Shown: positions 20,383-55,783 of the stretch, one piece after another | Numbering within the stretch: the first letter of the stretch is position 1 | Layout: each line of letters opens with the position of its first letter | DNA from: Escherichia phage EPFV3-03/2025 | Sequence record: PV435126.1 | Reading direction: 5' to 3' (one strand) | DNA length: 64,000 nt | The notes under the pieces: generated by a model | Told to the model about the DNA's origin: nothing | Seen by the model: the letters and a program-made list of their open reading frames with translations, nothing else | The model's database searches: none | Made by a program: the position numbers and the translations under genes

Positions 20383-20610
20383 TTAGGTGCGGTCTCCATC
20401 CCTACTCTCCTTCCGGATATTCTTGTAGTAATCGACTAGGCACATTATTACGATGAAGATAACAACAGGCCAAAAAGGTGCAGCAGTGATGATGGTGATA
20501 AAATCATCAAACTTCACCCTTCGTCTGGACACGATGCATATACCTGTCAAGAATACCGCTGTTATAACGGATATTACCAAGTAACCTATTAGCACAACAT
20601 TTATACTCAT
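20383..20610 (-). CDS. hypothetical membrane protein (75 aa)
   Basis: Two hydrophobic helices. Confidence 0.5.
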   Translation of the reverse strand: MSINVVLIGYLVISVITAVFLTGICIVSRRRVKFDDFITIITAAPFWPVVIFIVIMCLVDYYKNIRKESRDGDRT

Positions 20611-42717: not shown

Positions 42718-42726
42718 GTATCCTCC

Positions 42727-42933
42727 TCATTCAAAGAAATGGGTGCGAGGGCAGGAACCTGCCTCACCTTGTTTCACAAGCTCATATAGCTCACCTTGGC
42801 TTGTCTCATAAAGGCAAATACGTTTACCATTGTCCCGATATACATCCACAAGATACGCTGTTTCACCTGCAAACACGACACCACAGACAAGGCATGCTGC
42901 CATGAACAAAATTGCCAACAGAAAATCTTTCAT
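42727..42933 (-). CDS. small membrane/lipoprotein-like protein downstream of endolysin
   Basis: N-terminal hydrophobic segment LLAILFMAACLVCGVVFA with Cys residues. Confidence 0.45.
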   Translation of the reverse strand: MKDFLLAILFMAACLVCGVVFAGETAYLVDVYRDNGKRICLYETSQGELYELVKQGEAGSCPRTHFFE

Positions 42934-42996
42934 GGTTAAACCCTCCTGAACATTCTATGAGGCAACAATACCACGTCCGTGTGGTTATGTCAATGA

Positions 42997-43467
42997 TTAA
43001 TCCAGGACAACGCCGCCTGACTTTTTGAACACCTCGATCAACTTTTCAATCTTCTGTTCGTGCTGACCGTACCCTGCACCTGGAAGGCTTGCCCATCGGG
43101 ATCGGCAAAGATGGATGGCCTGGTGAATACGACCTTCATCAATATCATCGAGCGCCTTACACTCACGGATCAGTTGCAACGCAATCTTGTCCTGACTGGT
43201 AGGGCCAAAATCTGGTAATCCTAACTGCTCCATATAGTGTTTAGCAAACTTCTCCAAAATCTGGTAACGCCCAGCAGCAGAGGAGGTAAGTTTAGCATTT
43301 AACTTAACGTAAACACCTGGATGCTTACTGTAATCGCTAAACAGCTTGCCACCGACTATGACATCATAGCCCCGATCCTTGGTAGGTTGTCTACCGTTAT
43401 CTGTACCTTCTGAATATGCGATCATATCCAAGAAAGCTTTTCGTTGAACATTTTTATCAAGTTTCAT
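42997..43467 (-). CDS. endolysin, lambda R-like lytic transglycosylase
   Basis: QRKAFLDMIAYSEGTDNGRQPTKDRGYDVIVGG...ASLPGAGYGQHE closely parallels lambda R as recalled. Confidence 0.9.
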   Translation of the reverse strand: MKLDKNVQRKAFLDMIAYSEGTDNGRQPTKDRGYDVIVGGKLFSDYSKHPGVYVKLNAKLTSSAAGRYQILEKFAKHYMEQLGLPDFGPTSQDKIALQLIRECKALDDIDEGRIHQAIHLCRSRWASLPGAGYGQHEQKIEKLIEVFKKSGGVVLD

Positions 43468-43618
43468 TTTTCATACTCTCCAGTTCACTCATAACGAGCC
43501 CGATCAGCACCACTACATAGTGTGGCTATGTTGCACAGTGCATACATCAGAGCATATGTAGGTGCCAATTGAAAACACTCATTCAATTGGCTACCGTTAT
43601 CTACTAAACATACCTACA

Positions 43619-44902
43619 CTATTCCAGAACCTCCCAAGTGTCTGGATTAACATTTCGGACGCAGATACCGACAGGGAATTGGTAGTTGTTGTCTTCTGTC
43701 CTTGCTTGATATTTAAAGGTGACAAACTTGCCGATCATTTCCTGCATCCTGCCATAGCTACGCTCCTCGTGCGTGCCTTTCATCTTCATTTTAACAACGA
43801 TGCCTTCCTTGTCAACGCAGATAAGAACACCCTCATCATTCTTATCTTTCTCAACGTCAATAACTTTCACCTCTGCGTCGTTGAACTTTTTCCATTTCAA
43901 TGCTTCAGATGTTCGCTGACCGTATTCGTATTTACCACAGAAGTTACGCATGATAGTACCTTCATACCCTTCGGACATGAATACACCAACAGATTCTTCG
44001 CAATGATCAACTGTGTACGCAATCTCTGCGTCAACAACCCTGATATGGTCAAGCATCAGAGTGGTAATGGTATCTTCTGCATCCATAAGATCCTTGCAGC
44101 GTCCAGACTCTGTTTCTGGATCCCACCACACCTTGTCACTAGGGATATCAAAAATGTGATACTCTAAGTCATAGCTACAGTACCCTCCGTAACGCAAATC
44201 ATCACGAACAGGCTCAACATCAACAGGAATATCTACCTTATTGAAGTTTTTGTATGTTGATAAGCCTGCCTTAATTGCGGCATGACGGCGTTTTTTATCT
44301 GCCTCGTAGTCTTTATCGATCTCGGCCTGAATCTCTTCCTGTGTGCGCCACCGTTTAGCAAGAGACACTATTTTCTGCAGAGGCAGACCATGAATATAGA
44401 TCTCTCCGTCGAGCTGTTTAATCCCGGTGGTGAAGTGGAAAGAACGAAGTTGCTCCAGAAGCTTTCCTTGAATAGGGTAGGACTTATTACCACGGGAAAT
44501 AAATTTAGGCTCCCCATTTTGGAAAACAACAAGTAGACGAAGGCCATCTAACTTACGCAAGATCCAGCAAGGTAATTTAAGTGCCTTTCCACGCTTCAGG
44601 TAGTCATGCACCAGCATGGGTAAAAGGTCAACGCCCTGCTCGCAATCTTCCATATTTTCAACATACCCCAGACGGACTTGTTTTTCCCACTTACTGATCG
44701 CTTCCAGCTCAGCCTGTTGCTCAGCTGTAGTTTCATTGGCACGACCCACGTTCTTAGGTGTGCAGATCGTCTCTTTGTATTGCAGTTTACCATCAAGCTT
44801 GCCAAACTCTACGATAACCTTATCACCATCCGTGAATACTTTCCACTGTTGGTAGCTGTCATCTTTGTTCAGTGCGTACAGTGTTGTTTTGATCTGATGC
44901 AT
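43619..44902 (-). CDS. ATP-dependent DNA ligase
   Basis: Motif I RKLDGLR (KxDGxR), motif IV-like EGYEGTIMR, motif V-like LKWKKF, about 90 aa OB-like tail. Confidence 0.6.
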   Translation of the reverse strand: MHQIKTTLYALNKDDSYQQWKVFTDGDKVIVEFGKLDGKLQYKETICTPKNVGRANETTAEQQAELEAISKWEKQVRLGYVENMEDCEQGVDLLPMLVHDYLKRGKALKLPCWILRKLDGLRLLVVFQNGEPKFISRGNKSYPIQGKLLEQLRSFHFTTGIKQLDGEIYIHGLPLQKIVSLAKRWRTQEEIQAEIDKDYEADKKRRHAAIKAGLSTYKNFNKVDIPVDVEPVRDDLRYGGYCSYDLEYHIFDIPSDKVWWDPETESGRCKDLMDAEDTITTLMLDHIRVVDAEIAYTVDHCEESVGVFMSEGYEGTIMRNFCGKYEYGQRTSEALKWKKFNDAEVKVIDVEKDKNDEGVLICVDKEGIVVKMKMKGTHEERSYGRMQEMIGKFVTFKYQARTEDNNYQFPVGICVRNVNPDTWEVLE

Positions 44903-45171
44903 TACTCAGCCTCTTCCTTAAAAATTTTAAACATCTCTTCTTTGCTCATTACCAACCAGTCTCCCATAAAGTCAACTAACCAATCCCCTTGGTACAAGAC
45001 CAGGTTACCAAACGGCTCGACAAGCTCACACATGCGAAGAATATCTCTGGTTCGAACAGGTGACGATGTAAACACACCTGTATCAATCCACCGTTGCAGA
45101 TCAGATACTGATGAAGAGCTTCCGTCAAACTGGTGTGCTTCTACAGGTTTAGCAAGATTAAATAACGGCAT
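44902..45171 (-). CDS. hypothetical protein (89 aa)
   Basis: Coupled ORF. Confidence 0.5.
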   Translation of the reverse strand: MPLFNLAKPVEAHQFDGSSSSVSDLQRWIDTGVFTSSPVRTRDILRMCELVEPFGNLVLYQGDWLVDFMGDWLVMSKEEMFKIFKEEAE

Positions 45172-45466
45172 TGCAGTCCTCCTTCTCTAATAGGTCTTTT
45201 ATCGGGTAAACAAGCAGGTGCGGATCGTAATAACTTATAGTCTTATTCTGCCACACTATGAACTTAATTACAACTAAATTTACCACATCTTTATCCCCAT
45301 GTAGTCCAACACACAAATTTGTCCATATTTTGTGGTTGAATACTTTGCTGTCGATGTAGATCTTAGTGTCAAACTTATCCTCTATCCTACCTATAAGTTT
45401 AACCAATTCTTTCATCTGATCACCAAACACAGCATCGTTTTCAAGATCTCTAGAGTGCTTGTACAT
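45158..45466 (-). CDS. hypothetical protein (102 aa)
   Basis: Coupled ORF. Confidence 0.5.
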   Translation of the reverse strand: MYKHSRDLENDAVFGDQMKELVKLIGRIEDKFDTKIYIDSKVFNHKIWTNLCVGLHGDKDVVNLVVIKFIVWQNKTISYYDPHLLVYPIKDLLEKEDCNAVI

Positions 45467-45530
45467 AACTTTCTACCTCACTTGCATACTTTCCGAAACA
45501 AGTAAAGCCGGGATCGCCCCGGCTATGTTA

Positions 45531-46244
45531 TTAAATATATTCTGTTACATCCTTGAAGCTCGAAGGCTTCATAATCTTACCTTTACTGTCGAGGAATATG
45601 ATAACTTTATTTCCGTTGTAGAATTCTTCTTTAGCAACAAAACCTTCATAGCGACCATCAAAGCGTCGCTCAAGATCTTTAATCTCCAACTCGATGAGTT
45701 GTTCAGCAGGCATATCTGCACTGGCACCGTGTGAATACCGCAGATGGTTGACGCGTGCAAACTTGCTGTCATTAGATTTTAGAACCTTCCGCATCATCCC
45801 GCACACATCACCGCGAAGCTGGAACAGCAAAGCTGTTGACAACTCTGCTAAGCGGTAAGCAGACGCTCTTTGCTTAGAGGTATTTTTCGCAGCGATCAGT
45901 GTATCATAAAATTCACCGATCTTAAACTTAAGACCTCGCGGATTATCAAACAGGTTTGACCACTTTTCATGGTTATCGTTAACAAGATAAGCGGCATAAC
46001 TTGTGACAACGTGAAGATCGCAGGCCTCTTTTAGGAGATGATCCCCACCATCACCTTTCTCCAACTCTTCCAAAACTTCATTGAACTCTTCCTCAATGAA
46101 ACTCAGCTGAAGTTCGAATGGTGTGTATGATTTTTTCACTTTAGCTGCTACACGGTTCCAATTTTCCACCCAGTTGGCAGACCAAAGGTAGTTTTCAGGC
46201 TGAGACAGTTTTTCCAGGTTGTCGATCAGTTTAGTATTCAGCAT
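45531..46244 (-). CDS. MazG-like nucleotide pyrophosphohydrolase (putative)
   Basis: Acidic helical motif EEEFNEVLEELEKGD...EACDL. Confidence 0.4.
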   Translation of the reverse strand: MLNTKLIDNLEKLSQPENYLWSANWVENWNRVAAKVKKSYTPFELQLSFIEEEFNEVLEELEKGDGGDHLLKEACDLHVVTSYAAYLVNDNHEKWSNLFDNPRGLKFKIGEFYDTLIAAKNTSKQRASAYRLAELSTALLFQLRGDVCGMMRKVLKSNDSKFARVNHLRYSHGASADMPAEQLIELEIKDLERRFDGRYEGFVAKEEFYNGNKVIIFLDSKGKIMKPSSFKDVTEYI

Positions 46245-46258
46245 TAAAAGGCCTCCGC

Positions 46259-47020
46259 TTACAGTTCCATAAAGTTTTCTACGATGTCAATAAATGTTTT
46301 ATCAGAGAAAGCGTCAACCGCCCCGTTAAACCAAACTGGGATGCCGCGATCCTCATACTGGTAAATGTCACTACGTGAAATGCCATTCTCCCCTAAATGC
46401 TGTGAGTCGTATTTGTTAACGATCAGTAGTTTAGTCCCCTTATTACAGGCAGGGAATAGCTCCCAGTTAAAATTGATAACTGTGTTGGAGCACCCTACAA
46501 GGATAACCATATCATTGCTCGTCAGAGAAGTCAACAGGTCATACATGTCTACATACTTTGGAGCTACTTCTCCGAAGAACACTACATTAGGCTTGACCCA
46601 AGTATACTCGCTTGCATCTACCTCAGAGTATCCAATGTCTTTAATTACGTCATTCCCTTCATCATCCTCATAAACTATTTCTGGCAAATACCCGTGGACA
46701 TGCAAAATATCTTCATGTTTTACACCAGCACGCTCCAGCAAATCATCTACATTGGTGGTCAGGTTGATCACACGACCAGACCAGCGGGAATACCACTCAG
46801 CGATCCGGAGATGTGCAAGGTTAGGCTCAACACTCCCCAAAGCTACACGCCGTGCATTGTAAAAGTCATGTACCTTATAGTAGTTCTTGGCAAAGGTGTG
46901 GATGTTACACACCTCATCGATGCTGAAATTCTCCCACATTGCAGTGCCACCAGATCGGAAAGTTGGGATACCAGATTCAGCGCTCAAACCAGCACCGGAG
47001 ATAATGATCAGTCGTCGCAT
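46259..47020 (-). CDS. Sir2-family (sirtuin-like) NAD-binding protein, apparently lacking Zn-ribbon
   Basis: GAGLSAESGIPTFR, TNVDDL, HVHG and VVFFGE motifs; no CxxC pairs. Confidence 0.7.
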   Translation of the reverse strand: MRRLIIISGAGLSAESGIPTFRSGGTAMWENFSIDEVCNIHTFAKNYYKVHDFYNARRVALGSVEPNLAHLRIAEWYSRWSGRVINLTTNVDDLLERAGVKHEDILHVHGYLPEIVYEDDEGNDVIKDIGYSEVDASEYTWVKPNVVFFGEVAPKYVDMYDLLTSLTSNDMVILVGCSNTVINFNWELFPACNKGTKLLIVNKYDSQHLGENGISRSDIYQYEDRGIPVWFNGAVDAFSDKTFIDIVENFMEL

Positions 47021-47028
47021 AAGTGTCC

Positions 47029-47379
47029 TCAGTAGATGTTTTGTTTAATCTCTATTCCAAACTTTTTAAACGAGTCAGCAGCAAGCATGAATTTACGAGC
47101 CGCTGATGGGTTAGAAGTATGCACGAAAATCTTCACGTTGTCAACTACAGGAGGCTTACCAAATACAAATTTTTCTTCCAGCATAGATAGGCAATCGTAC
47201 CCTTCAAATACCTCTCCAAGGTCGTTGTCCATGTGCCACTCAGAAACGCGCCTGTAGAGCTTTCCCTTATCGTTAATAAAATCAATAAACTCAGAGGAAT
47301 TCTTTAGCCAAAGAGCATCTGGGAGCCCATAATTTGACGGATCTCTCAAGTCATCCAGCCACACAATCAACTTCTTCAT
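47029..47379 (-). CDS. hypothetical protein (116 aa)
   Basis: Coupled between RNA ligase and Sir2-like genes. Confidence 0.5.
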   Translation of the reverse strand: MKKLIVWLDDLRDPSNYGLPDALWLKNSSEFIDFINDKGKLYRRVSEWHMDNDLGEVFEGYDCLSMLEEKFVFGKPPVVDNVKIFVHTSNPSAARKFMLAADSFKKFGIEIKQNIY

Positions 47380-48311
47380 TGCATATAGTCCTCGTTGTGG
47401 AAATAGCAGTCAAGTATCTCACGGCGTTCCTGCTCCAGGAGGCAATTCCACACATCTTCTGTGTAGTTTCTACGAATGAAGTTTACCATGCCGTAAAACT
47501 CTTCGTCAACACGTTTAAAGATATCATCATCCCAAATCTTCCAAGCTCTACCCCTCATTACGACCTTCCGTGCCAGATAGTAGGGAGACTTGATCTTTAG
47601 TTGCAGGTCATAAGGGTAGTAAGACTTACGGATCATATACCCTTCGCCCCTTGTTTCTGCAGCCAACTCTTTTGCATAGCTGAACGGAATTTCACGCACA
47701 GTGTGAGGACGTTTTGCACCAAGGTATTTGGCAATACCGTCTAAAGCTGCTTCTGGTAGCATTATTCCAGAATCATTGTATCGGCAACCGATCAAATAGG
47801 CACCATGATCTTCCTGAACAATATGCGGGTCTGAAGGGTGACAAATTTCAAACATGAATGTCATGTTTTCATGGCCCATAACCTTCTTGATAAGATCTAA
47901 ATTACCACATTGCTCCTGGATTGTTTCCTTTGCGAGGTTACAATATGGAGAATCAAGAGACCCTGTTGTTGAGAACAACAGTTCACCTTTGTGAGATGAT
48001 ACCACACCAAGGAATCCGTTCTTTTTCTCTACCGCCGTCACAAGTTTATTGTCAGGCAGGTTGGTGGAATTTTCTCCCAAGTTAAATACTTTTGTGAAGG
48101 GCCATGCCACAACATTTCCTTCATTACCGACAACAATTCCTCGGCACTCTAGTAAACGCGGAGACAAATGCCATAGATTGTTGTAAAATACTTTTCTGGC
48201 ATATTTATAGATCTTTAACCCAAGATCTGGATAATACCGACTGGTTACAAGACCTTTATCCACTAAATCATCTGCATTAAAATACTTCATCATACATTCC
48301 TCGTTTGTCAT
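47376..48311 (-). CDS. ATP-dependent RNA ligase (nucleotidyltransferase ligase without OB domain)
   Basis: Motif I EKKNG, motif IV EGYMIRK, motif V LKIKS; divergent from PNK kinase/phosphatase genes. Confidence 0.55.
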   Translation of the reverse strand: MTNEECMMKYFNADDLVDKGLVTSRYYPDLGLKIYKYARKVFYNNLWHLSPRLLECRGIVVGNEGNVVAWPFTKVFNLGENSTNLPDNKLVTAVEKKNGFLGVVSSHKGELLFSTTGSLDSPYCNLAKETIQEQCGNLDLIKKVMGHENMTFMFEICHPSDPHIVQEDHGAYLIGCRYNDSGIMLPEAALDGIAKYLGAKRPHTVREIPFSYAKELAAETRGEGYMIRKSYYPYDLQLKIKSPYYLARKVVMRGRAWKIWDDDIFKRVDEEFYGMVNFIRRNYTEDVWNCLLEQERREILDCYFHNEDYMQ

Positions 48312-48411
48312 TTTGTCACTCTATCTTGCCACACAAATAAACTAGTGTCAACACTTGAAATGAACAAAAGAGTTATGTATACTACCATTAAAATTAAAAC
48401 GGAGGATTACT

Positions 48412-48822
48412 ATGTCTAAAATGCTGTATATCGTGCGTGGTCTACCAGGTTCTGGCAAATCAACACTGGCAAATGCACTATCTTTAGAGGGGCTGTACCC
48501 ACATTTTGAGAACGACATGTTCTGGTACGACGACGATGGAAATTACAACTGGGATGCAAGTAAAGTAACACTTGCAGCAAAATGGTGCAAAGATAACGTA
48601 GAAGATATGATGCGTATGGGATACGACCGTGTCGTGGTAAGTAATACGTTTACAAAAGAAAAACATGTGCAAGAATATGTTGACATGGCAATCAGTCATG
48701 GGTATAGTTATACTGTGATCGTGGTTGAAAACCGCCACGGTAATAAGAGCATTCATGATGTTCCAGATAGGGTTGTGGACCGTATGGAGCGTGAGCTTAA
48801 AAACTGCATTAAACTAAAATGA
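48412..48822 (+). CDS. polynucleotide 5'-kinase-like P-loop kinase
   Basis: Walker A VRGLPGSGKSTLA resembles T4 Pnk kinase domain; no fused phosphatase. Confidence 0.6.
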   Translation: MSKMLYIVRGLPGSGKSTLANALSLEGLYPHFENDMFWYDDDGNYNWDASKVTLAAKWCKDNVEDMMRMGYDRVVVSNTFTKEKHVQEYVDMAISHGYSYTVIVVENRHGNKSIHDVPDRVVDRMERELKNCIKLK

Positions 48823-48829
48823 GGGATGT

Positions 48830-49384
48830 ATGAAATATTTTGTAACAAGCGATACACACTTTCTCCACCAGCGAGTCATGGAGTTTGATTCATGTCAAAA
48901 ACACAGATCTCAGTATGATCACAATCTTGACAGTATGAACGAAGGAATCATTGCAGAGTGGAACTCTGTTGTATCACCAGAAGACACTGTGTTTCACTTG
49001 GGCGATATTGCATGCACTAAGGATAAGAATATCAACAACTTATTTCCAGATATTCTAAATATGTTGAACGGACATATTATTCTTGTTCGTGGTAACCATG
49101 ACACAAGGACGACTGTCAGAATTATGAAAGAGTTCGGTCATGAGGTTGTAGATTATTACGAGCTTCGCCACAACAAGAATTTGATCTGTATGAGCCATTA
49201 CCAGTTTGCAAAGTGGAACAGAAAGCCTCACGGATCAGTCCAACTGTTCGGTCATGCTCACGGAACCACACAGCAGTTGTTTGGCAGGCAGTTTGATGTC
49301 GGTTGGGATGTGTGGGGGAGACTCTTACCATTAGAAGAGGCATACCGTATTGCAATGAGTCTTGCTATTGACAGCGGGGAGTAA
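48830..49384 (+). CDS. calcineurin-like metallophosphoesterase
   Basis: SDTHF (DxH), GDIACTKD, GNHD, GHAHG motifs. Confidence 0.7.
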   Translation: MKYFVTSDTHFLHQRVMEFDSCQKHRSQYDHNLDSMNEGIIAEWNSVVSPEDTVFHLGDIACTKDKNINNLFPDILNMLNGHIILVRGNHDTRTTVRIMKEFGHEVVDYYELRHNKNLICMSHYQFAKWNRKPHGSVQLFGHAHGTTQQLFGRQFDVGWDVWGRLLPLEEAYRIAMSLAIDSGE

Positions 49385-49431
49385 TCCCTGCTATTTTAAA
49401 GAAAATTGCCACACAAGGAGAATCAGGAGAT

Positions 49432-49782
49432 ATGAAAGAGGAGGATAAGCTGCCATACCTTAAAGTCCCATTTGGAATACTGTCTATGTCAAAAGTTTTG
49501 AATGATACAACTGGAGAGGTTGTTGTTCTTGACTTGTATGACAAGATCGTATACTGCTACCTGCACAACTGGTATAAGCTTGGAGGAAATTCACGCTTCA
49601 CACCCAGCACAAGGAAAATTGCAGCAGATGTTGGGATAAAGAAAACAAAAGCAGCAGCGTGCGTTAAAACTTTAGAATGTGCAGGCGTGGTTGAAATATC
49701 CACACAAGGGAGAGGTAAAAGATGCACATTTTCCAAAGTTTTGCCACCAGAAGAGGTTATTCGAATGTCAACAACTGGTTAG
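49432..49782 (+). CDS. putative winged-helix DNA-binding protein
   Basis: 116-aa ORF; wHTH-like segment STRKIAADVGIKKTKAAACVKTLECAGVVE; directly upstream of iterons. Confidence 0.45.
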   Translation: MKEEDKLPYLKVPFGILSMSKVLNDTTGEVVVLDLYDKIVYCYLHNWYKLGGNSRFTPSTRKIAADVGIKKTKAAACVKTLECAGVVEISTQGRGKRCTFSKVLPPEEVIRMSTTG

Positions 49783-49857
49783 ACCAGTAAAAACTTAAAT
49801 ATCTGTACTATAAGGATTCGTATGTTTTATGTCCATCCAAGAGCAGAGGGTAGTAAC

Positions 49858-49945
49858 TGTCCGTAATACGGACACTACTGCCCGTCACGCGGACACATCT
49901 GCCCGTAATACGGACACTAACTGTCCGCAATACGGACACATAAAG
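49858..49945. repeat. four tandem iterons of about 21-22 bp, each with palindrome CCGTAATACGG + ACAC
   Basis: TCCGTAATACGGACACTACTG / CCCGTCACGCGGACACATCTG / CCCGTAATACGGACACTAACTG / TCCGCAATACGGACACATAAAG. Confidence 0.8.
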
Positions 49946-50443
49946 AATATAACTAAAATAACTAAATAATAAAAAATAAAAGATCTAGTACTTATGGTAC
50001 TAAAGTACATATACTTAACTTATGTAGAATATACTAGATCCTAAGTACCATGTTTTAAATTTATTACTTACTATTGGTAGTGTCGGCCCTTCATTGGCAC
50101 TCGCCTACGAGGGGCGAGATGCCGGGCCTCCATAGTGCACACAATAACAGGAGTGCATACATGCAGGACTGTTAACATGTGTGGGAGCGAAGCGATAGCG
50201 CAGGCCAAAGGCCGAGCACTAATGTGGACCACCGACGAAAGCTTGCCAGCGCCGTAAGGAGTCGGTTGAGAGCCTCCCGCGAGAGTTTAGTTAAAGTTTA
50301 TGTGTGGAAACGGACAGGAAGGCCCCTAAATCGCCACACAGCTGCGTAAACTATACCAAGTAAGGCAATCGCACCAGTTTGATAGAAAAGCTCGTTACAA
50401 AGCGATACAGTGAGTTTTTCTATAACTTGAAGAGGAGGCAGTT

Positions 50444-51022
50444 ATGAGTTCACGCAAAGATGACCGCGAAAAGATTGCAAAACGTTATCAGAATGAAGAA
50501 CAGATGGAGAAAACTTTCAAGTGGAAGCCAGGTTTCCAGCGTAATCATTCTAACGCTCGTGATCGTAAGCATCCGGATAAGTGGCTAACACCGCCAAATG
50601 ATGGCATGCAGGTTGGTGATGAGAAGGAGCTATCGCCTGGAAAAGATGGCAACTACATTCGCACTAAGGACGCTGGTCCAAAGGATGACAGCTATCTTGT
50701 AGATAAGGTTCTTGATGGTATTGATGTAGATGTTGACACCACACGGAACTTTTTTCTTGGGTGGTATCGCACAGGTTTTTTCGACATCAAGGCCATTCGT
50801 CGTGTTTGTGATATTAAAAAGTCTGCATATGATGACGACTCGTTACATCGCACCCTGAGGCAATATTCAGAAAGATATGGTCATCCGGTTATCACTCTTG
50901 ACGATGTTGACGAAGTGATGTATCATGCAGAGGTTGTTGCAGGCAGATTTGGTGATGCATATCTTGATATCCTTTCTGCAAACGATGAGGTAATGTTGAA
51001 TAAGATTTACTACGAACGTTGA
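50444..51022 (+). CDS. hypothetical protein (192 aa)
   Basis: ORF with GAGGAGG RBS. Confidence 0.55.
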   Translation: MSSRKDDREKIAKRYQNEEQMEKTFKWKPGFQRNHSNARDRKHPDKWLTPPNDGMQVGDEKELSPGKDGNYIRTKDAGPKDDSYLVDKVLDGIDVDVDTTRNFFLGWYRTGFFDIKAIRRVCDIKKSAYDDDSLHRTLRQYSERYGHPVITLDDVDEVMYHAEVVAGRFGDAYLDILSANDEVMLNKIYYER

Positions 51023-51032
51023 GGAGAGCTTA

Positions 51033-51221
51033 ATGAACAATCCGGTAGCAAAGAACTGTAATAAGTTCAACAAGTCTGCAATTCACACTGACAGGAAAAA
51101 GAGCTGGTCACCGGACATTGACGAGGAGCTTGAGAATTACTTTGAAGATCTGGTTACCAATGCAGGTGAGGTTGCGATTAAAGAATACGCAGACAGGAGG
51201 GATAAGGCCGGAATCTGTTGA
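51033..51221 (+). CDS. hypothetical protein (62 aa)
   Basis: ORF with GAGGAG RBS. Confidence 0.45.
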   Translation: MNNPVAKNCNKFNKSAIHTDRKKSWSPDIDEELENYFEDLVTNAGEVAIKEYADRRDKAGIC

Positions 51222-51297
51222 CAAAAATAATGTTACCTGATAAGATCTGCAATATGATGTGATACAATTTTAACTTACGAGGTCTACAGGTAATGCT

Positions 51298-51540
51298 ATG
51301 TTTAAGGTTAAGCTCGTTTTCCGTTCCATGAATGAGGATTATTTAGAAGATGAAGGTGAATTTCGTGCACTAGATGATGCAATAGATTTTGCCAACGACT
51401 TAGCTTGTATGAACACGGGTTATGGGTTGTGTTGTTGGGACGGTGGTATTCAGATCGGTGATAGCAAAATCTTCTACTTCTACCCTGAGCCGGATAACAA
51501 ACAAATTAAGTATGTTTTATTTATTTGTGCTTTACAATGA
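51298..51540 (+). CDS. hypothetical protein (80 aa)
   Basis: ORF. Confidence 0.45.
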   Translation: MFKVKLVFRSMNEDYLEDEGEFRALDDAIDFANDLACMNTGYGLCCWDGGIQIGDSKIFYFYPEPDNKQIKYVLFICALQ

Positions 51541-51884
51541 GGTTGTTTTCGTGTATCATGATGAATATCCAATTTAAAGATGAATTTGATGGCTTTATCT
51601 CCGGATGCTTTGAAACAGGGTTCGGAGAATGCTGAGTTCCCCTTAGAGGGCTTGATAGTGCACCACACTTAAAATGGTAGGGGCAGCCAGCACATGACGA
51701 TGTGACCCCAGCCAACCTGTAATAAGGTCGAGCCAAAGCGCGGTAATGGGTCTCTGGTAACCCACTTGTTGGGTCTTGTGGTCCAGGACGCTGGGCAAGT
51801 CGCAGGGAATACCACCCTGCGGCGAACTTGACAATCAGTATTTGCCGTGATAAAATCCACCTATCACGTGATAATGGAGGAAAC

Positions 51885-52223
51885 ATGGCGGATACAACTA
51901 AAAAGCGTCGCCGTAGAGGCAGACCTCTGAAAGAGGAGTCCAACGCCATTCAGCTAGAGAAGAACATTCTTGATATGAAGGAATCTTTTATAGCGATGGT
52001 TCCAGAAGCTCACAAAGTTTTAAGAGAGCTGATGTTGGATCCGAAAACCAAGCAAAATATTCGTCAAAGCATTGCAGAGTATGTCCTTGATAAGGCAGAC
52101 CGAATGCAGGAAGAATATGATGAGATGTTTGGTGAAGAGGAAGAGGTAGTAGTAGAAGAGGCTGAAAAACCAGCACCTTTTATGCCATTTACCACAGAGA
52201 TACAGCCTGTTGGCAATAGTTAA
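51885..52223 (+). CDS. hypothetical DNA-binding protein with basic AT-hook-like N-terminus
   Basis: ATG 51885 with GGAGGAAAC RBS and TTGACA promoter-like site upstream; KKRRRRGRP then acidic tail; small terminase is one possibility. Confidence 0.4.
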   Translation: MADTTKKRRRRGRPLKEESNAIQLEKNILDMKESFIAMVPEAHKVLRELMLDPKTKQNIRQSIAEYVLDKADRMQEEYDEMFGEEEEVVVEEAEKPAPFMPFTTEIQPVGNS

Positions 52224-52319
52224 AATATTTTCTTGACAAACTTTGCTTAACAGTGTAATATTGTAAACATGGTCTCCCACCTTTTCTGGCGGCTCAGGTG
52301 TAAAAGAAAGCCACCCAGT

Positions 52320-52394
52320 GCCCTGTTAGCTTAGTGGATAAAGCAGCGGCCTTCTAAGCCGTTGACACTGGTTCGAGTCCAGTACGGGGTGCCA
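52320..52394 (+). tRNA. tRNA-Arg (anticodon TCT)
   Basis: Manual cloverleaf: 7-bp acceptor GCCCTGT/ACGGGGT, 4-bp D-stem, anticodon loop CTTCTAA, T-loop TTCGAGT, CCA encoded. Confidence 0.75.
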
Positions 52395-52398
52395 AATT

Positions 52399-52485
52399 GG
52401 GGAGTTATCCCGTAGAGGTAGCGGTGTAGACTGTAAATCTATTGTCATTGCGACTCGGGTGGTTCGACTCCACCACTCCCCACCA
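52399..52485 (+). tRNA. tRNA-Tyr (anticodon GTA), long variable arm
   Basis: Acceptor GGGGAGT/ACTCCCC, anticodon loop CTGTAAA, T-arm GGTGG-TTCGACT-CCACC, CCA encoded. Confidence 0.7.
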
Positions 52486-52599
52486 AATTTATATTTTTAA
52501 ATGCATAAATCATACAGATAATGACATTGATATTTATCGTCGTTTATACTAGTCACTAACTGCTCGAAAATCAGTGTCATTATCAGTGTAATTTATAAA

Positions 52600-52690
52600 G
52601 GAGGGTAGGGAGCAATGGTGCTCAAGCGGTCTTGAAAACCGTCCCGTTGAGGATGACTCGATGATGGTTCGATTCCATTACTCTCCGCCA
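52600..52690 (+). tRNA. tRNA-Ser (anticodon TGA), long variable arm
   Basis: Acceptor GGAGGGT/ACTCTCC, anticodon stem GCGGT/ACCGT with loop CTTGAAA, T-loop TTCGATT, CCA encoded. Confidence 0.7.
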
Positions 52691-52788
52691 CATTGTTGAC
52701 CTTGTAATTAAGCGAAAGCCGGAAGCAGAACCGGATTATCAAATGTTACAGTCGTCATCGCCGACTAGCCACATGGTCAACATATTGC

Positions 52789-52887
52789 GCTAGGTAAGCC
52801 CTTTGGCAAGGGCGAGGATTTTTAATCCTGAAAATAGACGAGGTAGTCGTTGAATACATAGGTGGTTCGATTCCATCACCTAGCACC
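52789..52887 (+). tRNA. atypical tRNA-like gene (possible anticodon TTT) with about 30-nt insertion before T-arm
   Basis: Perfect 7-bp acceptor GCTAGGT/ACCTAGC, D-arm GCCC-TTTGGCAA-GGGC, T-arm GGTGG-TTCGATT-CCATC, but 4-bp anticodon stem and over-long variable region; CCA not fully encoded. Confidence 0.45.
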
Positions 52888-52892
52888 TTTTT

Positions 52893-52968
52893 GCTGATGT
52901 AGCACAATTGGCAGTGCAATTGATTTGTAATCAATAGGTTGCAGGTTCGAGTCCTGCCATCAGCACCA
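52893..52968 (+). tRNA. tRNA-Thr (anticodon TGT)
   Basis: Acceptor GCTGATG/CATCAGC, D-stem GCAC/GTGC, anticodon stem ATTGA/TCAAT loop TTTGTAA, T-loop TTCGAGT, CCA. Confidence 0.8.
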
Positions 52969-52969
52969 T

Positions 52970-53044
52970 GGCCCTGTAGCTGGAAGGTTCAAGCAAGCGA
53001 CTCATAATCGCCAGACGGTGGTTCAATTCCACCCAGGGCCACCA
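52970..53044 (+). tRNA. tRNA-Met (anticodon CAT; Ile-lysidine type not excluded)
   Basis: Acceptor GGCCCTG/CAGGGCC, anticodon loop CTCATAA, T-arm GGTGG-TTCAATT-CCACC, CCA. Confidence 0.7.
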
Positions 53045-53055
53045 AATAATAAATA

Positions 53056-53132
53056 CTCCGCGTAGCTCAGCTTGGTAGAGCGCCTGATTTGGGATCAGGA
53101 GGTCGAGTGTTCGAATCACTCCGTGGAGACCA
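53056..53132 (+). tRNA. tRNA-Pro (anticodon TGG)
   Basis: C1-G72 acceptor CTCCGCG/CGTGGAG, D-arm GCTC-AGCTTGGTA-GAGC, anticodon stem CCTGA/TCAGG loop TTTGGGA, T-loop TTCGAAT, CCA. Confidence 0.8.
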
Positions 53133-53178
53133 CCTTTAGTTATACTTTAAATATATACACACAAAAGGAACCTTTAAA

Positions 53179-53448
53179 ATGTATACACTTAAAATTGTAG
53201 AGCGTGTAAATCCAACCCATACTGTAGATTTTCGTGACGATTTCAACCCTCTTGCTGTAAATCTTCGAGAGTCGTATCATGAACTAAGCTGCGATGCAGT
53301 TGTGGTCTTCTTTGAAGACAACTCTGAAGGGGCAGTGGCTTGTGTTGTTGATAGCGAGCAGAAGTTTTATATTTACAGAGATGTGGATGCTTACTTGATG
53401 AATGAGAATGCGGTTACTGTCAGAATCATCCACCGAGTGCCTCGATAA
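53179..53448 (+). CDS. hypothetical protein (89 aa)
   Basis: ORF with AAAGGAAC RBS after tRNA cluster. Confidence 0.5.
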   Translation: MYTLKIVERVNPTHTVDFRDDFNPLAVNLRESYHELSCDAVVVFFEDNSEGAVACVVDSEQKFYIYRDVDAYLMNENAVTVRIIHRVPR

Positions 53449-53501
53449 GTATTAGTCTCCTTTTAGTTAGTTTCGATCTATTTAGGTTACTCAATTTTAA
53501 C

Positions 53502-53537
53502 CCGCCCCGTTAGCTGTATAGCTGCGGGGTTTTTTCG
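53502..53537 (+). terminator. putative intrinsic terminator
   Basis: GCCCCG...CGGGG stem with long loop followed by TTTTTT. Confidence 0.45.
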
Positions 53538-53553
53538 TTTCTGGAGCCTTAAA

Positions 53554-53952
53554 ATGATTTCAGTTTTAACATTGATGAGTAAATACAGAGGGATCATAAA
53601 AGGTTTAGTTTTTGCAGCTGCTCTAGGCACAGCATACTTGGGGGCCGTGTATTGGTTTAACTCTAAGCTCAACGCTGCTTATCAGGAAGGCGTAACAGCA
53701 ACAGAGTTAAAGTGGGAACGGATCCTTGACCAGCAACAAAAGCAGGCCGACAAAATTAAAATGGGCCACGCAGAGGAGGTTAAAAACCTTGAAAAATCTC
53801 TTTCTGACCTACAGGATAAATTAAATATGGCTGAGAAGGCAGGTAAAGAAAAGCAGATTATCTACCTCCAATCACCTGAAGGTAAGAAGTCAACACTCCC
53901 TGACCAGCTTATAGATATCTATAATGAGAGCATTAATCAGGAGGGCAGATGA
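53554..53952 (+). CDS. i-spanin (Rz-like inner-membrane spanin)
   Basis: N-terminal TM LVFAAALGTAYLGAVYWF then charged coiled-coil periplasmic domain; 3' end overlaps next gene. Confidence 0.65.
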   Translation: MISVLTLMSKYRGIIKGLVFAAALGTAYLGAVYWFNSKLNAAYQEGVTATELKWERILDQQQKQADKIKMGHAEEVKNLEKSLSDLQDKLNMAEKAGKEKQIIYLQSPEGKKSTLPDQLIDIYNESINQEGR

Positions 53953-54236
53953 GAGCCACCGTATTATTAGTTGCTTGCTTGCTGCTGTGCGGGTGTGCGA
54001 CAAGTGTCGAAAAAGAATACAAGATTGACCCTCCGGATGTAGGAAGGTTGATTGTTAAACCTCCCGAGGGTGCTATGAAACCACCTGCTAAAGCTATCCC
54101 TTTGAAGAAAGGTGCGCCAGATGCGGTGAATTCTGGCATTATGAGGGATAATAACCTGTCTTGTAGTAATGATAGAGCTAAATTGATCATTTTGCAAGAC
54201 TATATAAGAACACTGTTTCCAAAGGAGAGAGGTTAA
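53949..54236 (+). CDS. o-spanin (Rz1-like outer-membrane lipoprotein)
   Basis: Signal peptide with lipobox-like LLLCGCA; Pro-rich mature part; ATG overlaps i-spanin stop. Confidence 0.65.
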   Translation: MRATVLLVACLLLCGCATSVEKEYKIDPPDVGRLIVKPPEGAMKPPAKAIPLKKGAPDAVNSGIMRDNNLSCSNDRAKLIILQDYIRTLFPKERG

Positions 54237-55783
54237 TGTCTAAGATTTACGGACCGTGTTCTGAAAAGCAGAAGATGATCCTTGAGAACGATGCAGATAT
54301 TTTGGTGATCGGAGGTGCAGCAGGTTCTGGCAAGTCGTTCCTCTTGCAGCTAATGCCACTTAAAATTATTGATGACCCACACAGCTCTGTGGTTATGTTC
54401 CGAAGAACAACTCCACAGTTGGAAGGTGAGGGTGGGCTATGGCCTAAAGCAGTAGCTATTTACAGTGATCTGCCTGAAAACATTAAACCAAAGTTCAGAG
54501 AGAAGGATCATAAGTTTATTTTTCCACGGTTTGATCCGAGCACTGGCAAGTGGGACAGGAGCAAAAAAGGGGCCGTTGTAAAATACTGCCACATGGAGTA
54601 TGTCCAAGATAAGCTTAACCATCAAGGCCTTGAGTACACCATGGTTTGCTTCGATGAAGGCACGCAATTCGAATGGGAGCAGATAGACTATTTGATGTCT
54701 CGTCTGCGATCTCAGTCAAAGTATCCATCAAGAATGGTTATCAGTTGTAACCCCGACTCAGAACACATGCTTGCCAAACTGGTTAGGTGGTGGTTGGACG
54801 ATGAAGGGTATCCAGATCCGGAGAAATGTGGTAAGAAAAGATATTTTATCCGACGCGACGGTGAGTTTATCTGGGGAGACTCTAAAGAGGAGTTAATAGA
54901 GAAATACACCACGGTTAACGGACTGGGTGTGGAGATCAAGCCAAGACCGTTGTCATTCTCGTTTATAGGTGCAACAATTTTCGATAATCCTGTCTGCTTG
55001 AGAGACAACCCAGAATACCTTGCTTTCCTTGAAGGTCTACCAGAGCTTGAAAAAGCCCAGCTTCTTCATGGCAACTGGTTTGCCAAACCTGAGGGTGCAA
55101 ACTATTTCCAAAGATCTTTCCTTCGTGATGCCGATAGAGTACCTCTTGGATCAGTATCTTGCAGGGCATGGGATAAGGCAGGAACCGAGAGAACTTCCGG
55201 TAATAAATTTCCTGACTTTACTGCCAGTGTTAAGGTAAGTAAAGATAGCGACGGTTTTTATTACCTGTCCGGGGATTATTGTCCTGAGAACGTGGATGAC
55301 GGTAGGTATTCCACAGGTCTGGAAGGTAAGTTCTGTAAAAAGGCTGGGGAACGAGATGTGATCATCAGGAAACAGGCGCAGTTTGATGGAGATGATTGCA
55401 TAATCGTATTTTCTGTGGACCCCGGTCAGGCAGGTAAGAGTGAGTTCTTAACCTCGTCCAGATCCTTGCTCGCCGAAGGGTTCAGGGTTGAAGAAGATCC
55501 GATGCCTTCCAACAAATCTAAACTGACAAGGTTCTCACCTTTTGCCAATCTTGCCCAACAAGGAATGGTGAGGATTGTAAAATCCAGTTTCCATCCTGAC
55601 ACTCTGGAAGCATTTCTGACTGAACTTGAAAAGTTCAACGGGGAAAGATCAACATTTAACAGAAAAGACGACTGGGCCGACTGTGTAGCTTCTGCGATTA
55701 ATTTCTTGGAGAAAGAGGAGGTAGCACTGCCTTGTGTGATTCCATCAATCTCATCACCTTCTATGTTCAAGCGTTTTATCTAA
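54236..55783 (+). CDS. terL: terminase large subunit
   Basis: 515 aa; Walker A ILVIGGAAGSGKSF, Walker B-like MVCFDEGTQ; directly upstream of portal-sized gene. Confidence 0.85.
   Translation: MSKIYGPCSEKQKMILENDADILVIGGAAGSGKSFLLQLMPLKIIDDPHSSVVMFRRTTPQLEGEGGLWPKAVAIYSDLPENIKPKFREKDHKFIFPRFDPSTGKWDRSKKGAVVKYCHMEYVQDKLNHQGLEYTMVCFDEGTQFEWEQIDYLMSRLRSQSKYPSRMVISCNPDSEHMLAKLVRWWLDDEGYPDPEKCGKKRYFIRRDGEFIWGDSKEELIEKYTTVNGLGVEIKPRPLSFSFIGATIFDNPVCLRDNPEYLAFLEGLPELEKAQLLHGNWFAKPEGANYFQRSFLRDADRVPLGSVSCRAWDKAGTERTSGNKFPDFTASVKVSKDSDGFYYLSGDYCPENVDDGRYSTGLEGKFCKKAGERDVIIRKQAQFDGDDCIIVFSVDPGQAGKSEFLTSSRSLLAEGFRVEEDPMPSNKSKLTRFSPFANLAQQGMVRIVKSSFHPDTLEAFLTELEKFNGERSTFNRKDDWADCVASAINFLEKEEVALPCVIPSISSPSMFKRFI

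What the first reader, a model, noticed from the sequence alone, without database searches (positions are those of the whole stretch)
42727..54236. Lysis functions are split across the genome and no holin is evident
The lambda-R-like endolysin (42997-43467) is on the - strand among DNA-metabolism genes, while the overlapping i-/o-spanin pair (53554-54236) is on the + strand directly upstream of the terminase, 10 kb away. The only holin-like candidate is a 68-aa membrane/lipoprotein-like ORF downstream of the endolysin (42727-42933).
Basis: partly seen in the sequence, partly recalled or inferred. Interest (0 to 1): 0.4.

Follow-up and report, generated by a model that had tools for sequence, protein, structure and literature searches.

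The report
Scattered lysis genes of an rV5-like phage
This is the ordinary, already published lysis gene layout of an rV5-like E. coli phage: the cell-wall enzyme and the outer-membrane-breaking pair sit 10 kb apart, the small neighbouring gene is an exported protein and not the missing pore-former, and that pore-former is most likely encoded outside this window.

Summary
The window is a Vequintavirus (rV5/FV3-like myovirus), 98% identical to phage SYGMH1. The coordinates are exact:

- a lambda R-type endolysin at 42997-43467(-)
- an overlapping i-/o-spanin pair at 53554-54236(+), whose stop codon overlaps the terminase start

The literature already describes this split layout and the unidentified holin (rV5 2013, LL12 2019, CB7 2020).

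The 68-aa ORF (rV5 ORF90) is not holin-like:

- Its hydrophobic N-terminus is the least conserved part and ends in an AXA-type cleavage site.
- The conserved part is a 46-residue, two-cysteine beta domain.
- It has its own sigma70-type promoter.
- Its homologues in PVP-SE1 and ABPH49 occupy the same locus with no endolysin nearby.

It is also not the only candidate. About 20 small membrane ORFs lie on the coding strands, including the published rV5 "putative holin" homologue at 20383-20610(-).

A better lead lies outside the window. The rV5 gp029 family (phrog_1322) is conserved across the whole rV5-like supergroup in the tail-fibre module. In unrelated phages it fills the holin slot of endolysin-X-Rz-Rz1 cassettes.

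The finding itself is known and ordinary. The holin lead is new but untested.

The parts
42997..43467 (-). Endolysin. A soluble lambda R-type lytic transglycosylase homologue (rV5 ORF89) with no signal or SAR (signal-anchor-release) sequence.
   Evidence: PDB 1AM7/3D3D E=9e-56 with the catalytic Glu conserved. phrog_90 at 9.5e-55. Maximum KD19 0.34. Outside the genus, the closest relatives are lambdoid and P2-like endolysins at 56-67% identity, which there sit next to holin S.
42965..42993 (-). Sigma70-type promoter (TTGACA-17-TATTGT, TG-extended) between the endolysin stop and the 68-aa ORF.
   Evidence: Annotated as 'Sigma70-type promoter P90' in the rV5 record. An equivalent TTGACA-17-TATACT is present in relatives at 60% identity.
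42727..42933 (-). Small exported protein (rV5 ORF90 family, phrog_4641). It has a variable signal peptide (residues 1-22) and a conserved 46-residue beta domain with two invariant Cys. It is not a holin.
   Evidence: Alignment A1 and per-region identity. AF2 gives helix 2-17 plus four strands with pLDDT 86-93. There is no significant fold match. PVP-SE1 gp118 and the ABPH49 homologue lie at the syntenic locus without an endolysin.
53504..53535 (+). Terminator-like GC-rich hairpin followed by U6, ending 18 nt before the i-spanin ATG.
   Evidence: Sequence. Fold dG -17 kcal/mol, z-score only -1.4.
53554..53952 (+). i-spanin (Rz-like): an N-terminal TMD followed by a charged, helix-rich periplasmic domain.
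   Evidence: phrog_4297 at 7.5e-49. TMD at residues 14-32. Annotated as i-spanin in inoa and rV5. Listed as the rv5 family in the spanin database paper.
53949..54236 (+). o-spanin (Rz1-like outer-membrane lipoprotein). Its start overlaps the i-spanin stop, and its stop overlaps the TerL start.
   Evidence: phrog_1267 at 4.3e-22. Lipobox with Cys16 and a Pro-rich mature part. rv5 o-spanin family of 7 phages.
54236..55783 (+). Large terminase subunit, translationally coupled to the o-spanin. It places the spanins at the head of the late packaging operon.
20383..20610 (-). 75-aa two-TMD protein with a charged C-terminus. It is the homologue of rV5 ORF129, the published but untested 'putative holin'. 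It is in the window but outside the finding's span.
   Evidence: 88% identical to rV5 94058-94294. Proposal in PMC3606486. phrog_10061, function unknown. Restricted to the genus, and left as 'hypothetical' by the CPT and BASEL annotators. Alignment A3.

Best explanation
The span holds two of the three standard lysis functions of an rV5-like (Vequintavirus) myovirus. They are dispersed as in T4 rather than grouped as in lambda.

**Shown**
- The endolysin is a cytoplasmic lambda R-type transglycosylase. Its closest relatives outside the genus are endolysins of temperate lambdoid and P2-like phages.
- The spanin pair is an overlapped Rz/Rz1 equivalent fused to the front of the terminase operon.
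- The 68-aa ORF is a separately promoted, Sec-exported small periplasmic protein. It is ancestral to that locus in the subfamily.
- No member of any recognised holin family lies in the span or in the window.

**Inferred**
- The endolysin was acquired from temperate phages without their holin and inserted among DNA-metabolism genes, so its adjacency to the 68-aa ORF is an accident of insertion.
- Lysis follows the standard three steps. A membrane protein encoded elsewhere permeabilises the inner membrane late in infection. This releases the soluble transglycosylase to the peptidoglycan. The i-/o-spanin complex then disrupts the outer membrane.
- The most likely holin is the homologue of rV5 gp029 (phrog_1322), in the tail-fibre module outside this window.
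- The in-window alternative is the ORF129 homologue at 20383-20610.
For: **Identity of the phage and its genes:**

**Known layout:**

**68-aa ORF as an exported protein:**

**Endolysin origin:** one search shows the nearest non-Vequintavirus relatives at 56-67% identity are temperate-phage endolysins adjacent to 'holin S'.

**gp029 family**
- It is found in 373 phage records across Vequintavirus, Seunavirus, Mydovirus, Certrevirus, Phapecoctavirus and Aeromonas phages. ORF129 is found in 115 records, all Vequintavirus-like.
- There is exactly one copy each in rV5, PVP-SE1 and Phapecoctavirus DIJ07P2, always inside the tail-fibre/baseplate late module.
- The helical core is conserved and the charged C-tail varies in length.
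- An exhaustive profile search finds 64 cluster representatives, and all 63 that were scanned fall in phrog_1322.
- Of 11 distant members inspected:
  - five sit directly after an endolysin gene: phrog_315 (one member), Peptidase_M15_4/VanY (three members), GH108 (one member)
  - one sits two genes after a Hydrolase_2 enzyme
  - four sit directly before an Rz-like spanin, two of which also follow an endolysin
.
- In L028 and L026 the order is endolysin, family member, i-spanin, o-spanin or lipoprotein. The endolysins lack any signal sequence, so the family member is the only candidate pore-former.
Against: - No experiment exists for any holin candidate.
- The two hydrophobic segments of gp029 are weak (KD 1.05 and 0.85). 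TMHMM-type tools miss them, and the AF2 model has low confidence (pLDDT 60).
- A lysis-cassette position would equally fit an antiholin or another lysis regulator.
- I chose the 11 contexts myself. Several are short contigs, and the spanin PHROG hits there are weak (E from 1e-4 to 8e-7).
- The link to Pfam DUF2644 rests on 3 of 63 members in my scan (best E 2e-4) and on precomputed hits that I could not reproduce for L028.
- One member (P0074) sits in a T4-like replication module with no lysis neighbour.
- The endolysin lies in a block that looks early or middle, and its timing is unknown.
- The lineage also encodes a signal-peptide-bearing SleB-like hydrolase. The R-type enzyme may therefore not be the main endolysin.
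Confidence: 0.75

Rival explanations
1. The 68-aa ORF downstream of the endolysin is the holin, or a T4 RI-like antiholin with a signal-anchor-release (SAR) N-terminus. Together with the endolysin it forms a minimal two-gene lysis cassette.
For: - In this phage the N-terminal segment is strongly hydrophobic (KD 2.86).
- The endolysin/small-ORF adjacency is kept in Vequintavirus and in relatives at 60-64% identity, despite rearranged flanks.
- The topology (N-in, small periplasmic domain) resembles T4 RI.
Against: - The hydrophobic segment is the least conserved part. In relatives it is a weak, cleavable-looking signal peptide.
- The conserved part is a soluble beta domain.
- It has its own sigma70 promoter.
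- The PVP-SE1 and ABPH49 homologues occupy the same locus with the endolysin 17 kb away or not nearby.
- There is no match to a holin family.
Confidence: 0.07
2. The holin is the 75-aa two-TMD protein at 20383-20610(-), the rV5 ORF129 homologue, as Kropinski et al. 2013 proposed. It would be separated from the endolysin as T4 t is from e.
For: - It has two strong TMDs (KD 2.5) and a short, highly charged C-terminus.
- It was the only rV5 protein called with two TMDs by both TMHMM and Phobius.
- Like the R-type endolysin at this locus, it is found only in Vequintavirus-like genomes.
- It diverges fast between close relatives (57% identity in SYGMH1, whose lysis region is 98% identical in DNA), as holins often do.
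Against: - It has no homology to any holin family.
- It lies in a cluster of small, probably early genes with other membrane ORFs.
- It has no detectable homologue in PVP-SE1 or Phapecoctavirus, which share the spanins or the rest of the module.
- The inter-TMD loop carries four positive charges (RRRVK), which does not suit the N-in/C-in class II topology.
- The lysis specialists at CPT left it 'hypothetical' and stated that the holin could not be identified.
Confidence: 0.2
3. No canonical holin is needed. The lineage lyses through the Sec-exported SleB-like hydrolase (rV5 gp002, next to rIIA, outside the window). Its activity would be triggered by membrane depolarisation, in a pinholin-like or Mu-like holin-less scheme. 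The cytoplasmic R-type enzyme would be an accessory released only when the cell bursts.
For: - A Hydrolase_2 enzyme with an N-terminal signal peptide is conserved in rV5, PVP-SE1 and Phapecoctavirus.
- It is reported as the only endolysin in a Phapecoctavirus.
- The other endolysins differ in type and position between genera.
- Holin-less lysis has a precedent in Mu.
- The weak hydrophobicity of gp029 resembles SAR or pinholin helices.
Against: - Secretion of gp002 is inferred from sequence only.
- Members of the gp029 family are paired with signal-less endolysins in other phages, which argues for large-hole function.
- An R-type enzyme kept at 95-99% identity across the genus suggests that it matters.
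Confidence: 0.15

Closest known systems
Escherichia phage rV5 / FV3 / LL12 (genus Vequintavirus) lysis genes: ORF89 lysin, ORF90, ORF66/67 spanins
   Same: The genes, order, strands and spacing are the same, at 92-99% protein identity. [quoted passage not shown]
   Different: TerL is uninterrupted here, whereas rV5 and inoa have intron/HNH-split terminase genes. The ORF129 allele is 88% identical to rV5 but only 57% identical to the otherwise closest relative, SYGMH1.
Phage T4 lysis genes (e, t, pseT.3/pseT.2, rI, rIIA/rIIB), from established knowledge
   Same: In a large virulent myovirus, the endolysin, holin and overlapped spanin pair sit at separate loci. rIIA/rIIB homologues are present in the lineage. 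The candidate holin lies beside tail-fibre genes, as t lies beside gene 38.
   Different: The endolysin is lambda R-type, not a T4 e-type lysozyme. There is no homologue of the T holin. The spanins are fused to the terminase operon.
Lambda S-R-Rz/Rz1 cassette
   Same: The endolysin is a clear R homologue (about 60% identity, catalytic Glu kept). The spanins are functional analogues of Rz/Rz1, with a TMD, a lipobox and Pro-rich Rz1-like features.
   Different: There is no S-type holin upstream. Rz1 is overlapped rather than embedded. The genes are 10 kb apart on opposite strands and not under one late promoter.
Phage Mu holin-less lysis (SAR endolysin gp22 plus releasin gp25, PMC9239132)
   Same: It is a precedent for a Gram-negative phage with no recognisable holin. 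Mu-like phages are where phrog_1322 members sit between the endolysin and the spanin.
   Different: The endolysin here has no SAR domain. No DUF2730 match was found for any candidate.

Membership tests
Lambda R-type endolysin (lytic transglycosylase) | Full-length sequence homology to lambda R | tested here: met
   phmmer against PDB 1AM7/3D3D gives E=9e-56 over residues 4-154.
Lambda R-type endolysin (lytic transglycosylase) | Catalytic glutamate in the N-terminal (W/Y)SEGTD motif (lambda R Glu19) | tested here: met
   YSEGTD aligns with lambda WSEGTD. That this residue is catalytic comes from established knowledge.
Lambda R-type endolysin (lytic transglycosylase) | Soluble and cytoplasmic: no signal peptide or SAR domain, hence dependent on a holin | tested here: met
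   Maximum 19-residue hydropathy is 0.34, and the N-terminus MKLDKNVQRK is polar.
Lambda R-type endolysin (lytic transglycosylase) | Transglycosylase activity on peptidoglycan | not testable with these tools
   Needs an enzyme assay.
Two-component spanin (Rz/Rz1 equivalents) | i-spanin: an N-terminal TMD with a periplasmic helical domain | tested here: met
   TMD at residues 14-32. phrog_4297 at 7.5e-49.
Two-component spanin (Rz/Rz1 equivalents) | o-spanin: a lipoprotein signal with a lipobox Cys and a small Pro-rich mature domain | tested here: met
   MRATVLLVACLLLCG|C. The mature part has 80 aa, 9 Pro and 2 Cys. The residue at +2 is Ala. phrog_1267 at 4.3e-22.
Two-component spanin (Rz/Rz1 equivalents) | Adjacent, overlapped or embedded gene pair | tested here: met
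   4-nt overlap at 53949-53952. Listed as the rv5 spanin families in Kongari et al. 2018.
Two-component spanin (Rz/Rz1 equivalents) | Required for outer-membrane disruption | not testable with these tools
   Needs complementation of lambda Rz/Rz1 mutants.
Holin (tested on the 68-aa ORF 42727-42933) | Conserved transmembrane domain(s) as the functional core | tested here: not met
   The hydrophobic segment shows mean identity 48% (minimum 19%), against 85% for the soluble part. KD is 1.2-1.6 in relatives, and the segment ends in an AXA-like cleavage site.
Holin (tested on the 68-aa ORF 42727-42933) | Short, charged, hydrophilic cytoplasmic C-terminus | tested here: not met
   The C-terminal 46 residues form a conserved four-strand beta domain with two invariant Cys.
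Holin (tested on the 68-aa ORF 42727-42933) | Genetic linkage with the endolysin across relatives, or late co-expression | tested here: not met
   It has its own sigma70 promoter. The PVP-SE1 gp118 and ABPH49 homologues have no adjacent endolysin.
Holin (tested on the 68-aa ORF 42727-42933) | Lethal membrane permeabilisation on induction | not testable with these tools
   Needs an experiment.
Holin (tested on the ORF129 homologue 20383-20610) | At least one TMD, small size and a charged C-terminus | tested here: met
   Two TMDs (KD 2.5) and the C-terminus DYYKNIRKESRDGDRT.
Holin (tested on the ORF129 homologue 20383-20610) | Homology to a described holin family, or linkage to lysis genes | tested here: not met
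   Only phrog_10061, function unknown, and no Pfam family. Its neighbours are small hypothetical genes.
phrog_1322 / DUF2644-like membrane protein (candidate holin family of the lineage) | A member encoded in this window | tested here: not met
   hmmsearch of the family profiles against the six-frame translation of the window gave no credible hit (the best is E=0.0018 on an alternative-frame ORF). The positive controls were found once each in rV5, PVP-SE1 and DIJ07P2.

The most novel reading that the evidence does not exclude
The missing holin of the whole rV5-like supergroup (Vequintavirinae, Phapecoctavirus, Certrevirus-like phages) may be an unrecognised holin family. This is the phrog_1322 / DUF2644-like protein: rV5 gp029, 70-150 aa, with two weakly hydrophobic helices and a variable charged tail. 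In these myoviruses it is hidden in the tail-fibre module. In Mu-like and other phages it fills the holin slot between signal-less endolysins and the Rz/Rz1 genes. A smaller possibility is that the 68-aa periplasmic protein next to the endolysin modulates murein hydrolysis or superinfection in the manner of T4 Spackle.
Probability: 0.4. Interest if true: 0.55.

Novelty: already known. Interest (0 to 1): 0.27.

Why it matters
rV5-like phages are widely used in phage therapy and biocontrol cocktails, and their endolysins are being developed as antimicrobials. Their lysis timing gene has nevertheless stayed unidentified since 2013.

The finding adds nothing to that record. What this analysis changes:

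- It removes one false candidate, the 68-aa ORF.
- It shows that the published candidate (ORF129) is weakly supported.
- It points to a specific, testable family (phrog_1322) that would also annotate the holin slot in many Mu-like prophages.

Tried and rejected
1. **Late-promoter motifs as a timing test.** T4-type TATAAATA gave 5 hits against 2.8 expected, none upstream of a lysis gene. The rV5 motif TGGTAAAATA with up to 1 mismatch gave 18 hits against 7 expected, but none immediately upstream of the endolysin, the 68-aa ORF or the spanins. Timing therefore remains unknown.
2. **Fold of the 68-aa protein.** Foldseek against the PDB gave nothing below E=0.017, only generic small beta-barrel hits. 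No function can be assigned.
3. **Pfam on the small ORFs tested.** Only sub-threshold noise appeared.
4. **rV5 gp031 / PVP-SE1 gp043 (N-terminal TMD plus coiled coil) as a Mu-type releasin.** There was no DUF2730 hit. BLASTP against the similarly placed 92-aa protein of a Mu-like cassette gave E=0.48. Dropped.
5. **The small ORF after the SleB-like gene as a pinholin, as proposed for CB7.** PVP-SE1 gp244 is not hydrophobic, and rV5 has no such ORF.
6. **Literature.** No transcriptome of a Vequintavirus was found, and no paper mentions DUF2644.
7. **AF2 model of gp029.** Confidence was low (pLDDT 60). I used it only for helix boundaries.
8. **Lipoprotein reading of the 68-aa ORF.** The window copy matches a loose lipobox (FMAAC14), but that Cys is absent from half the family.

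Full report
**What the window is.** Megablast of 42000-55000 finds 747 phage records. The best is Escherichia phage SYGMH1 at 98.0% identity and full coverage, followed by FV3, ECP32 and others, all of genus Vequintavirus (rV5-like myoviruses of about 137 kb). By coordinate matching, the window corresponds to roughly 51-115 kb of rV5, reverse-complemented. GC skew and ORF orientation give three blocks:
- plus strand up to about 10 kb
- minus strand from about 10 to 48.3 kb
- plus strand from 48.4 kb onward

**Checking the observation.**
- The 156-aa product of 42997-43467(-) matches lambda lysozyme R (PDB 1AM7, 3D3D) at E=9e-56 across its whole length. The SEGTD catalytic motif is kept. It matches phrog_90 'endolysin' at 9.5e-55. 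It has no hydrophobic segment at all (maximum 19-residue Kyte-Doolittle (KD) hydropathy 0.34). It is therefore a soluble, cytoplasmic, holin-dependent type of enzyme.
- 53554-53952(+) matches phrog_4297 'Rz-like spanin' at 7.5e-49 and has a single N-terminal TMD.
- 53949-54236(+) matches phrog_1267 at 4.3e-22. It has the lipobox LLCG|C16 and a Pro-rich 80-residue mature part.
- The two spanin genes overlap by ATGA. The o-spanin stop overlaps the TerL ATG at 54236.
- The same ORFs are annotated as lysin, i-spanin and o-spanin in phages inoa, NHEP1 and rV5.

**It is already in the literature.**
- Kropinski et al. 2013 (PMC3606486) describe the rV5 lysin (ORF89). They note that no holin homologue exists. 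[quoted passage not shown]
- The LL12 genome announcement from the Center for Phage Technology identifies the endolysin and the i- and o-spanins. [quoted passage not shown]
- Buttimer et al. 2020 note that in CB7, rV5 and PVP-SE1 the spanin pair is not in a classic cassette but lies next to the large terminase.
- Kongari et al. 2018 list the rv5 i- and o-spanin families.
- Other papers on this subfamily report the same failure to find a holin.

**The 68-aa ORF is not a holin.** It is rV5 ORF90 ('contains transmembrane domain'), phrog_4641, function unknown.
- *Conservation pattern.* A search of 5.8 billion proteins finds only 11 clusters. In their alignment, the N-terminal hydrophobic stretch (residues 1-22) has mean pairwise identity 48% (minimum 19%). 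Residues 23-68 have 85% (minimum 74%) and two invariant cysteines.
- *Signal-peptide features.* In the more distant members the stretch reads MKTLWAVFISAMMFASGSAWS|GD. It is weakly hydrophobic (KD 1.2-1.6) and ends in an AXA-type site. That is the signature of a cleavable signal peptide. A holin shows the reverse pattern, with the TMD as the conserved core.
- *Structure.* AlphaFold2 predicts an N-terminal helix followed by a four-strand beta domain with pLDDT 86-93. That domain has no significant match in the PDB.
- *Own promoter.* Between the endolysin stop and this ORF lies TTGACA-17-TATTGT with a TG extension. The rV5 record annotates it as sigma70 promoter P90. Relatives at 60% identity have TTGACA-17-TATACT at the same place.
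- *Synteny without an endolysin.* PVP-SE1 gp118 (37% identity, E=7e-6) lies at the syntenic position just upstream of the HNH endonuclease and exonuclease genes. The PVP-SE1 endolysin gp146 lies 17 kb away, between gp144 and PhoH. An unannotated homologue in Acinetobacter phage ABPH49 lies between the DNA ligase and the HNH/exonuclease genes, again with no endolysin.

The small exported protein is therefore ancestral to that locus. The R-type endolysin was inserted next to it in Vequintavirus. Outside the genus, the closest relatives of that endolysin are temperate lambdoid and P2-like endolysins at 56-67% identity, which there sit beside holin S. The window copy happens to match a loose lipobox (FMAAC14), but that cysteine is missing from half of the family. 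Either way the protein is exported. Its function is unknown.

**It is not the only candidate.** A hydropathy scan of coding-strand ORFs finds about 20 small predicted membrane or secreted proteins in the window. Several have two hydrophobic segments. The one at 20383-20610(-) is the homologue of rV5 ORF129, at 88% identity.
- *For.* It has two strong TMDs and a charged tail.
- *Against.*
  - It matches no holin family.
  - It is confined to Vequintavirus-like genomes.
  - It sits in a cluster of small hypothetical genes.
  - It has four positive charges in the inter-TMD loop.
  - Both CPT (Mangalyan) and BASEL (bas50_0169) annotate it as hypothetical.

It remains a possible holin, but a weakly supported one.

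**A better lead outside the window.** The rV5 record shows an 88-aa 'membrane protein', gp029, between two tail-fibre genes.
- *Breadth.* tblastn finds it in 373 phage records spanning Vequintavirus, Seunavirus, Mydovirus, Certrevirus, Phapecoctavirus and Aeromonas phages. This is far wider than ORF129 (115 records) or ORF90 (122 records).
- *Copy number and position.* rV5, PVP-SE1 and Phapecoctavirus DIJ07P2 each have exactly one copy, always in the tail-fibre/baseplate late module. The window has none.
- *Holin-like conservation.* The core is nearly invariant (W26 to G74), and the charged C-tail varies in length. The positive-inside rule gives N-in/C-in.
- *Family size.* An exhaustive HMMER search of 1.84 billion representatives with the family profile returns 64 clusters. 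All 63 that were scanned belong to phrog_1322 'membrane protein', and a few carry Pfam DUF2644.
- *Genomic context.* I looked at 11 distant members.
  - Five lie directly downstream of an endolysin gene: phrog_315 (one member), VanY/Peptidase_M15_4 in Mu-like phages (three members) and GH108 with PG_binding_3 (one member).
  - One lies two genes after a Hydrolase_2 enzyme.
  - Four lie directly upstream of an Rz-like spanin, and two of these also follow an endolysin.
  - One has the same layout as one of those, but no DNA was available.
  - One lies in a T4-like replication module.
  - One is uninformative.

- *Complete cassettes.* In L028 and L026 the order is endolysin, family member, i-spanin, then o-spanin or lipoprotein. 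The endolysins have no signal or SAR sequence. The family member is therefore the only protein in the cassette that could let the endolysin out.

Association with at least four enzymatic classes of endolysin is the classic signature of a holin. The caveats are real:
- The helices are weakly hydrophobic (KD 1.05 and 0.85).
- The AF2 model is poor.
- I chose the sampled contexts myself.
- The spanin hits are weak.
- An antiholin or another lysis regulator would show the same linkage.

**A further complication.** rV5 gp002 is a SleB-like cell-wall hydrolase (PF07486) beside rIIA. It has a clear N-terminal signal peptide (MKIKIFAIILSAFLSLPVVAAP). So do its homologues in PVP-SE1 and Phapecoctavirus. 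In one Phapecoctavirus it is reported as the sole endolysin. The lineage may therefore have a conserved Sec-exported endolysin, with the R-type enzyme a genus-specific addition. This is inference only.

**How it most likely works.** Late in infection a holin encoded elsewhere permeabilises the inner membrane. My estimates for its identity are:
- the gp029 homologue outside the window, about 0.4
- the ORF129 homologue, about 0.2
- no canonical holin, about 0.15
- the 68-aa ORF, under 0.1

The soluble R-type transglycosylase then reaches the murein. The i-spanin and o-spanin, made from the head of the terminase operon, fuse or disrupt the outer membrane. The gene identities are shown. The order of events follows from established knowledge of lambda and T4 lysis. 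The identity of the holin and the timing of expression are inferred. A GC-rich hairpin followed by U6 ends 18 nt before the i-spanin ATG. The spanin-TerL transcript must therefore arise by read-through or from an unrecognised promoter.

**Verdict.** Its central interpretive claim about the 68-aa ORF is wrong. The overall layout is ordinary for this genus and already published. Interest is low (0.27). The most novel reading not excluded is that phrog_1322 is an unrecognised holin family (probability about 0.4).

Noticed in passing
window 53504-53535 (+): An intrinsic-terminator-like hairpin (11-bp GC-rich stem followed by U6, dG -17 kcal/mol) ends only 18 nt before the i-spanin start. There is no room for a promoter in between. 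The spanin-TerL operon must therefore be read through it or be driven from further upstream.
   Followed up: partly
outside the window: rV5 (NC_011041.1) 20937-21203; PVP-SE1 27748-28017; L009 (DIJ07P2) 27245-27487; loci L017, L018, L020-L022, L025, L026, L028: The phrog_1322 / DUF2644-like small membrane protein is conserved in the tail-fibre module of all the rV5-like genomes examined. In Mu-like and other phages it sits between signal-less endolysins and the Rz/Rz1 genes. It is a candidate unrecognised holin family.
   Followed up: yes
outside the window: rV5 1980-2480(-), PVP-SE1 145232-145774, DIJ07P2 51940-52461: The SleB-like cell-wall hydrolase (PF07486) next to rIIA carries an N-terminal signal peptide in all three genera. 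This suggests a lineage-conserved, Sec-exported muralytic enzyme in addition to the genus-specific endolysins.
   Followed up: partly
window 19094-20610 (-): This is a cluster of small membrane ORFs (homologues of rV5 ORF129-134). One is a 153-aa protein with a C-terminal TMD, homologous to rV5 gp133, which mass spectrometry found to be one of the predominant virion proteins.
   Followed up: partly
window 20383-20610 versus L016 (SYGMH1): The ORF129 homologue is only 57% identical to that of SYGMH1, although the two phages are 98% identical in DNA over the lysis region. This is a local mosaic or fast-evolving spot.
   Followed up: partly
window 49856-49939: There are four tandem copies of a 21-bp unit (ACTGCCCGTAATACGGACACT) in an ORF-poor stretch of about 650 bp (49.8-50.44 kb). 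The stretch lies just after the gene annotated as transcriptional regulator or replication initiation protein. The repeats look like iterons, and phage inoa annotates them as repeat_region.
   Followed up: no
window 52789-52887 (+): ARAGORN calls a 99-nt 'tRNA-???' with a four-base anticodon (atcc) inside the seven-gene tRNA cluster. Phage inoa annotates it as tRNA-OTHER, and the rV5 record does not annotate it.
   Followed up: no
window about 8000-10300: This is an ORF-poor region where the coding strand and GC skew switch. It corresponds to the rV5 stretch 104013-106618 described as having no ORFs.
   Followed up: no
window 54236-55783 (+): The large terminase gene is uninterrupted here (515 aa). 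In rV5 and inoa it is split by introns and a homing endonuclease.
   Followed up: no
phage database hits: About 20 GenBank records named 'Campylobacter phage' (MG0656xx) carry near-identical Vequintavirus genes. They look like mislabelled or contaminating coliphage sequences.
   Followed up: no
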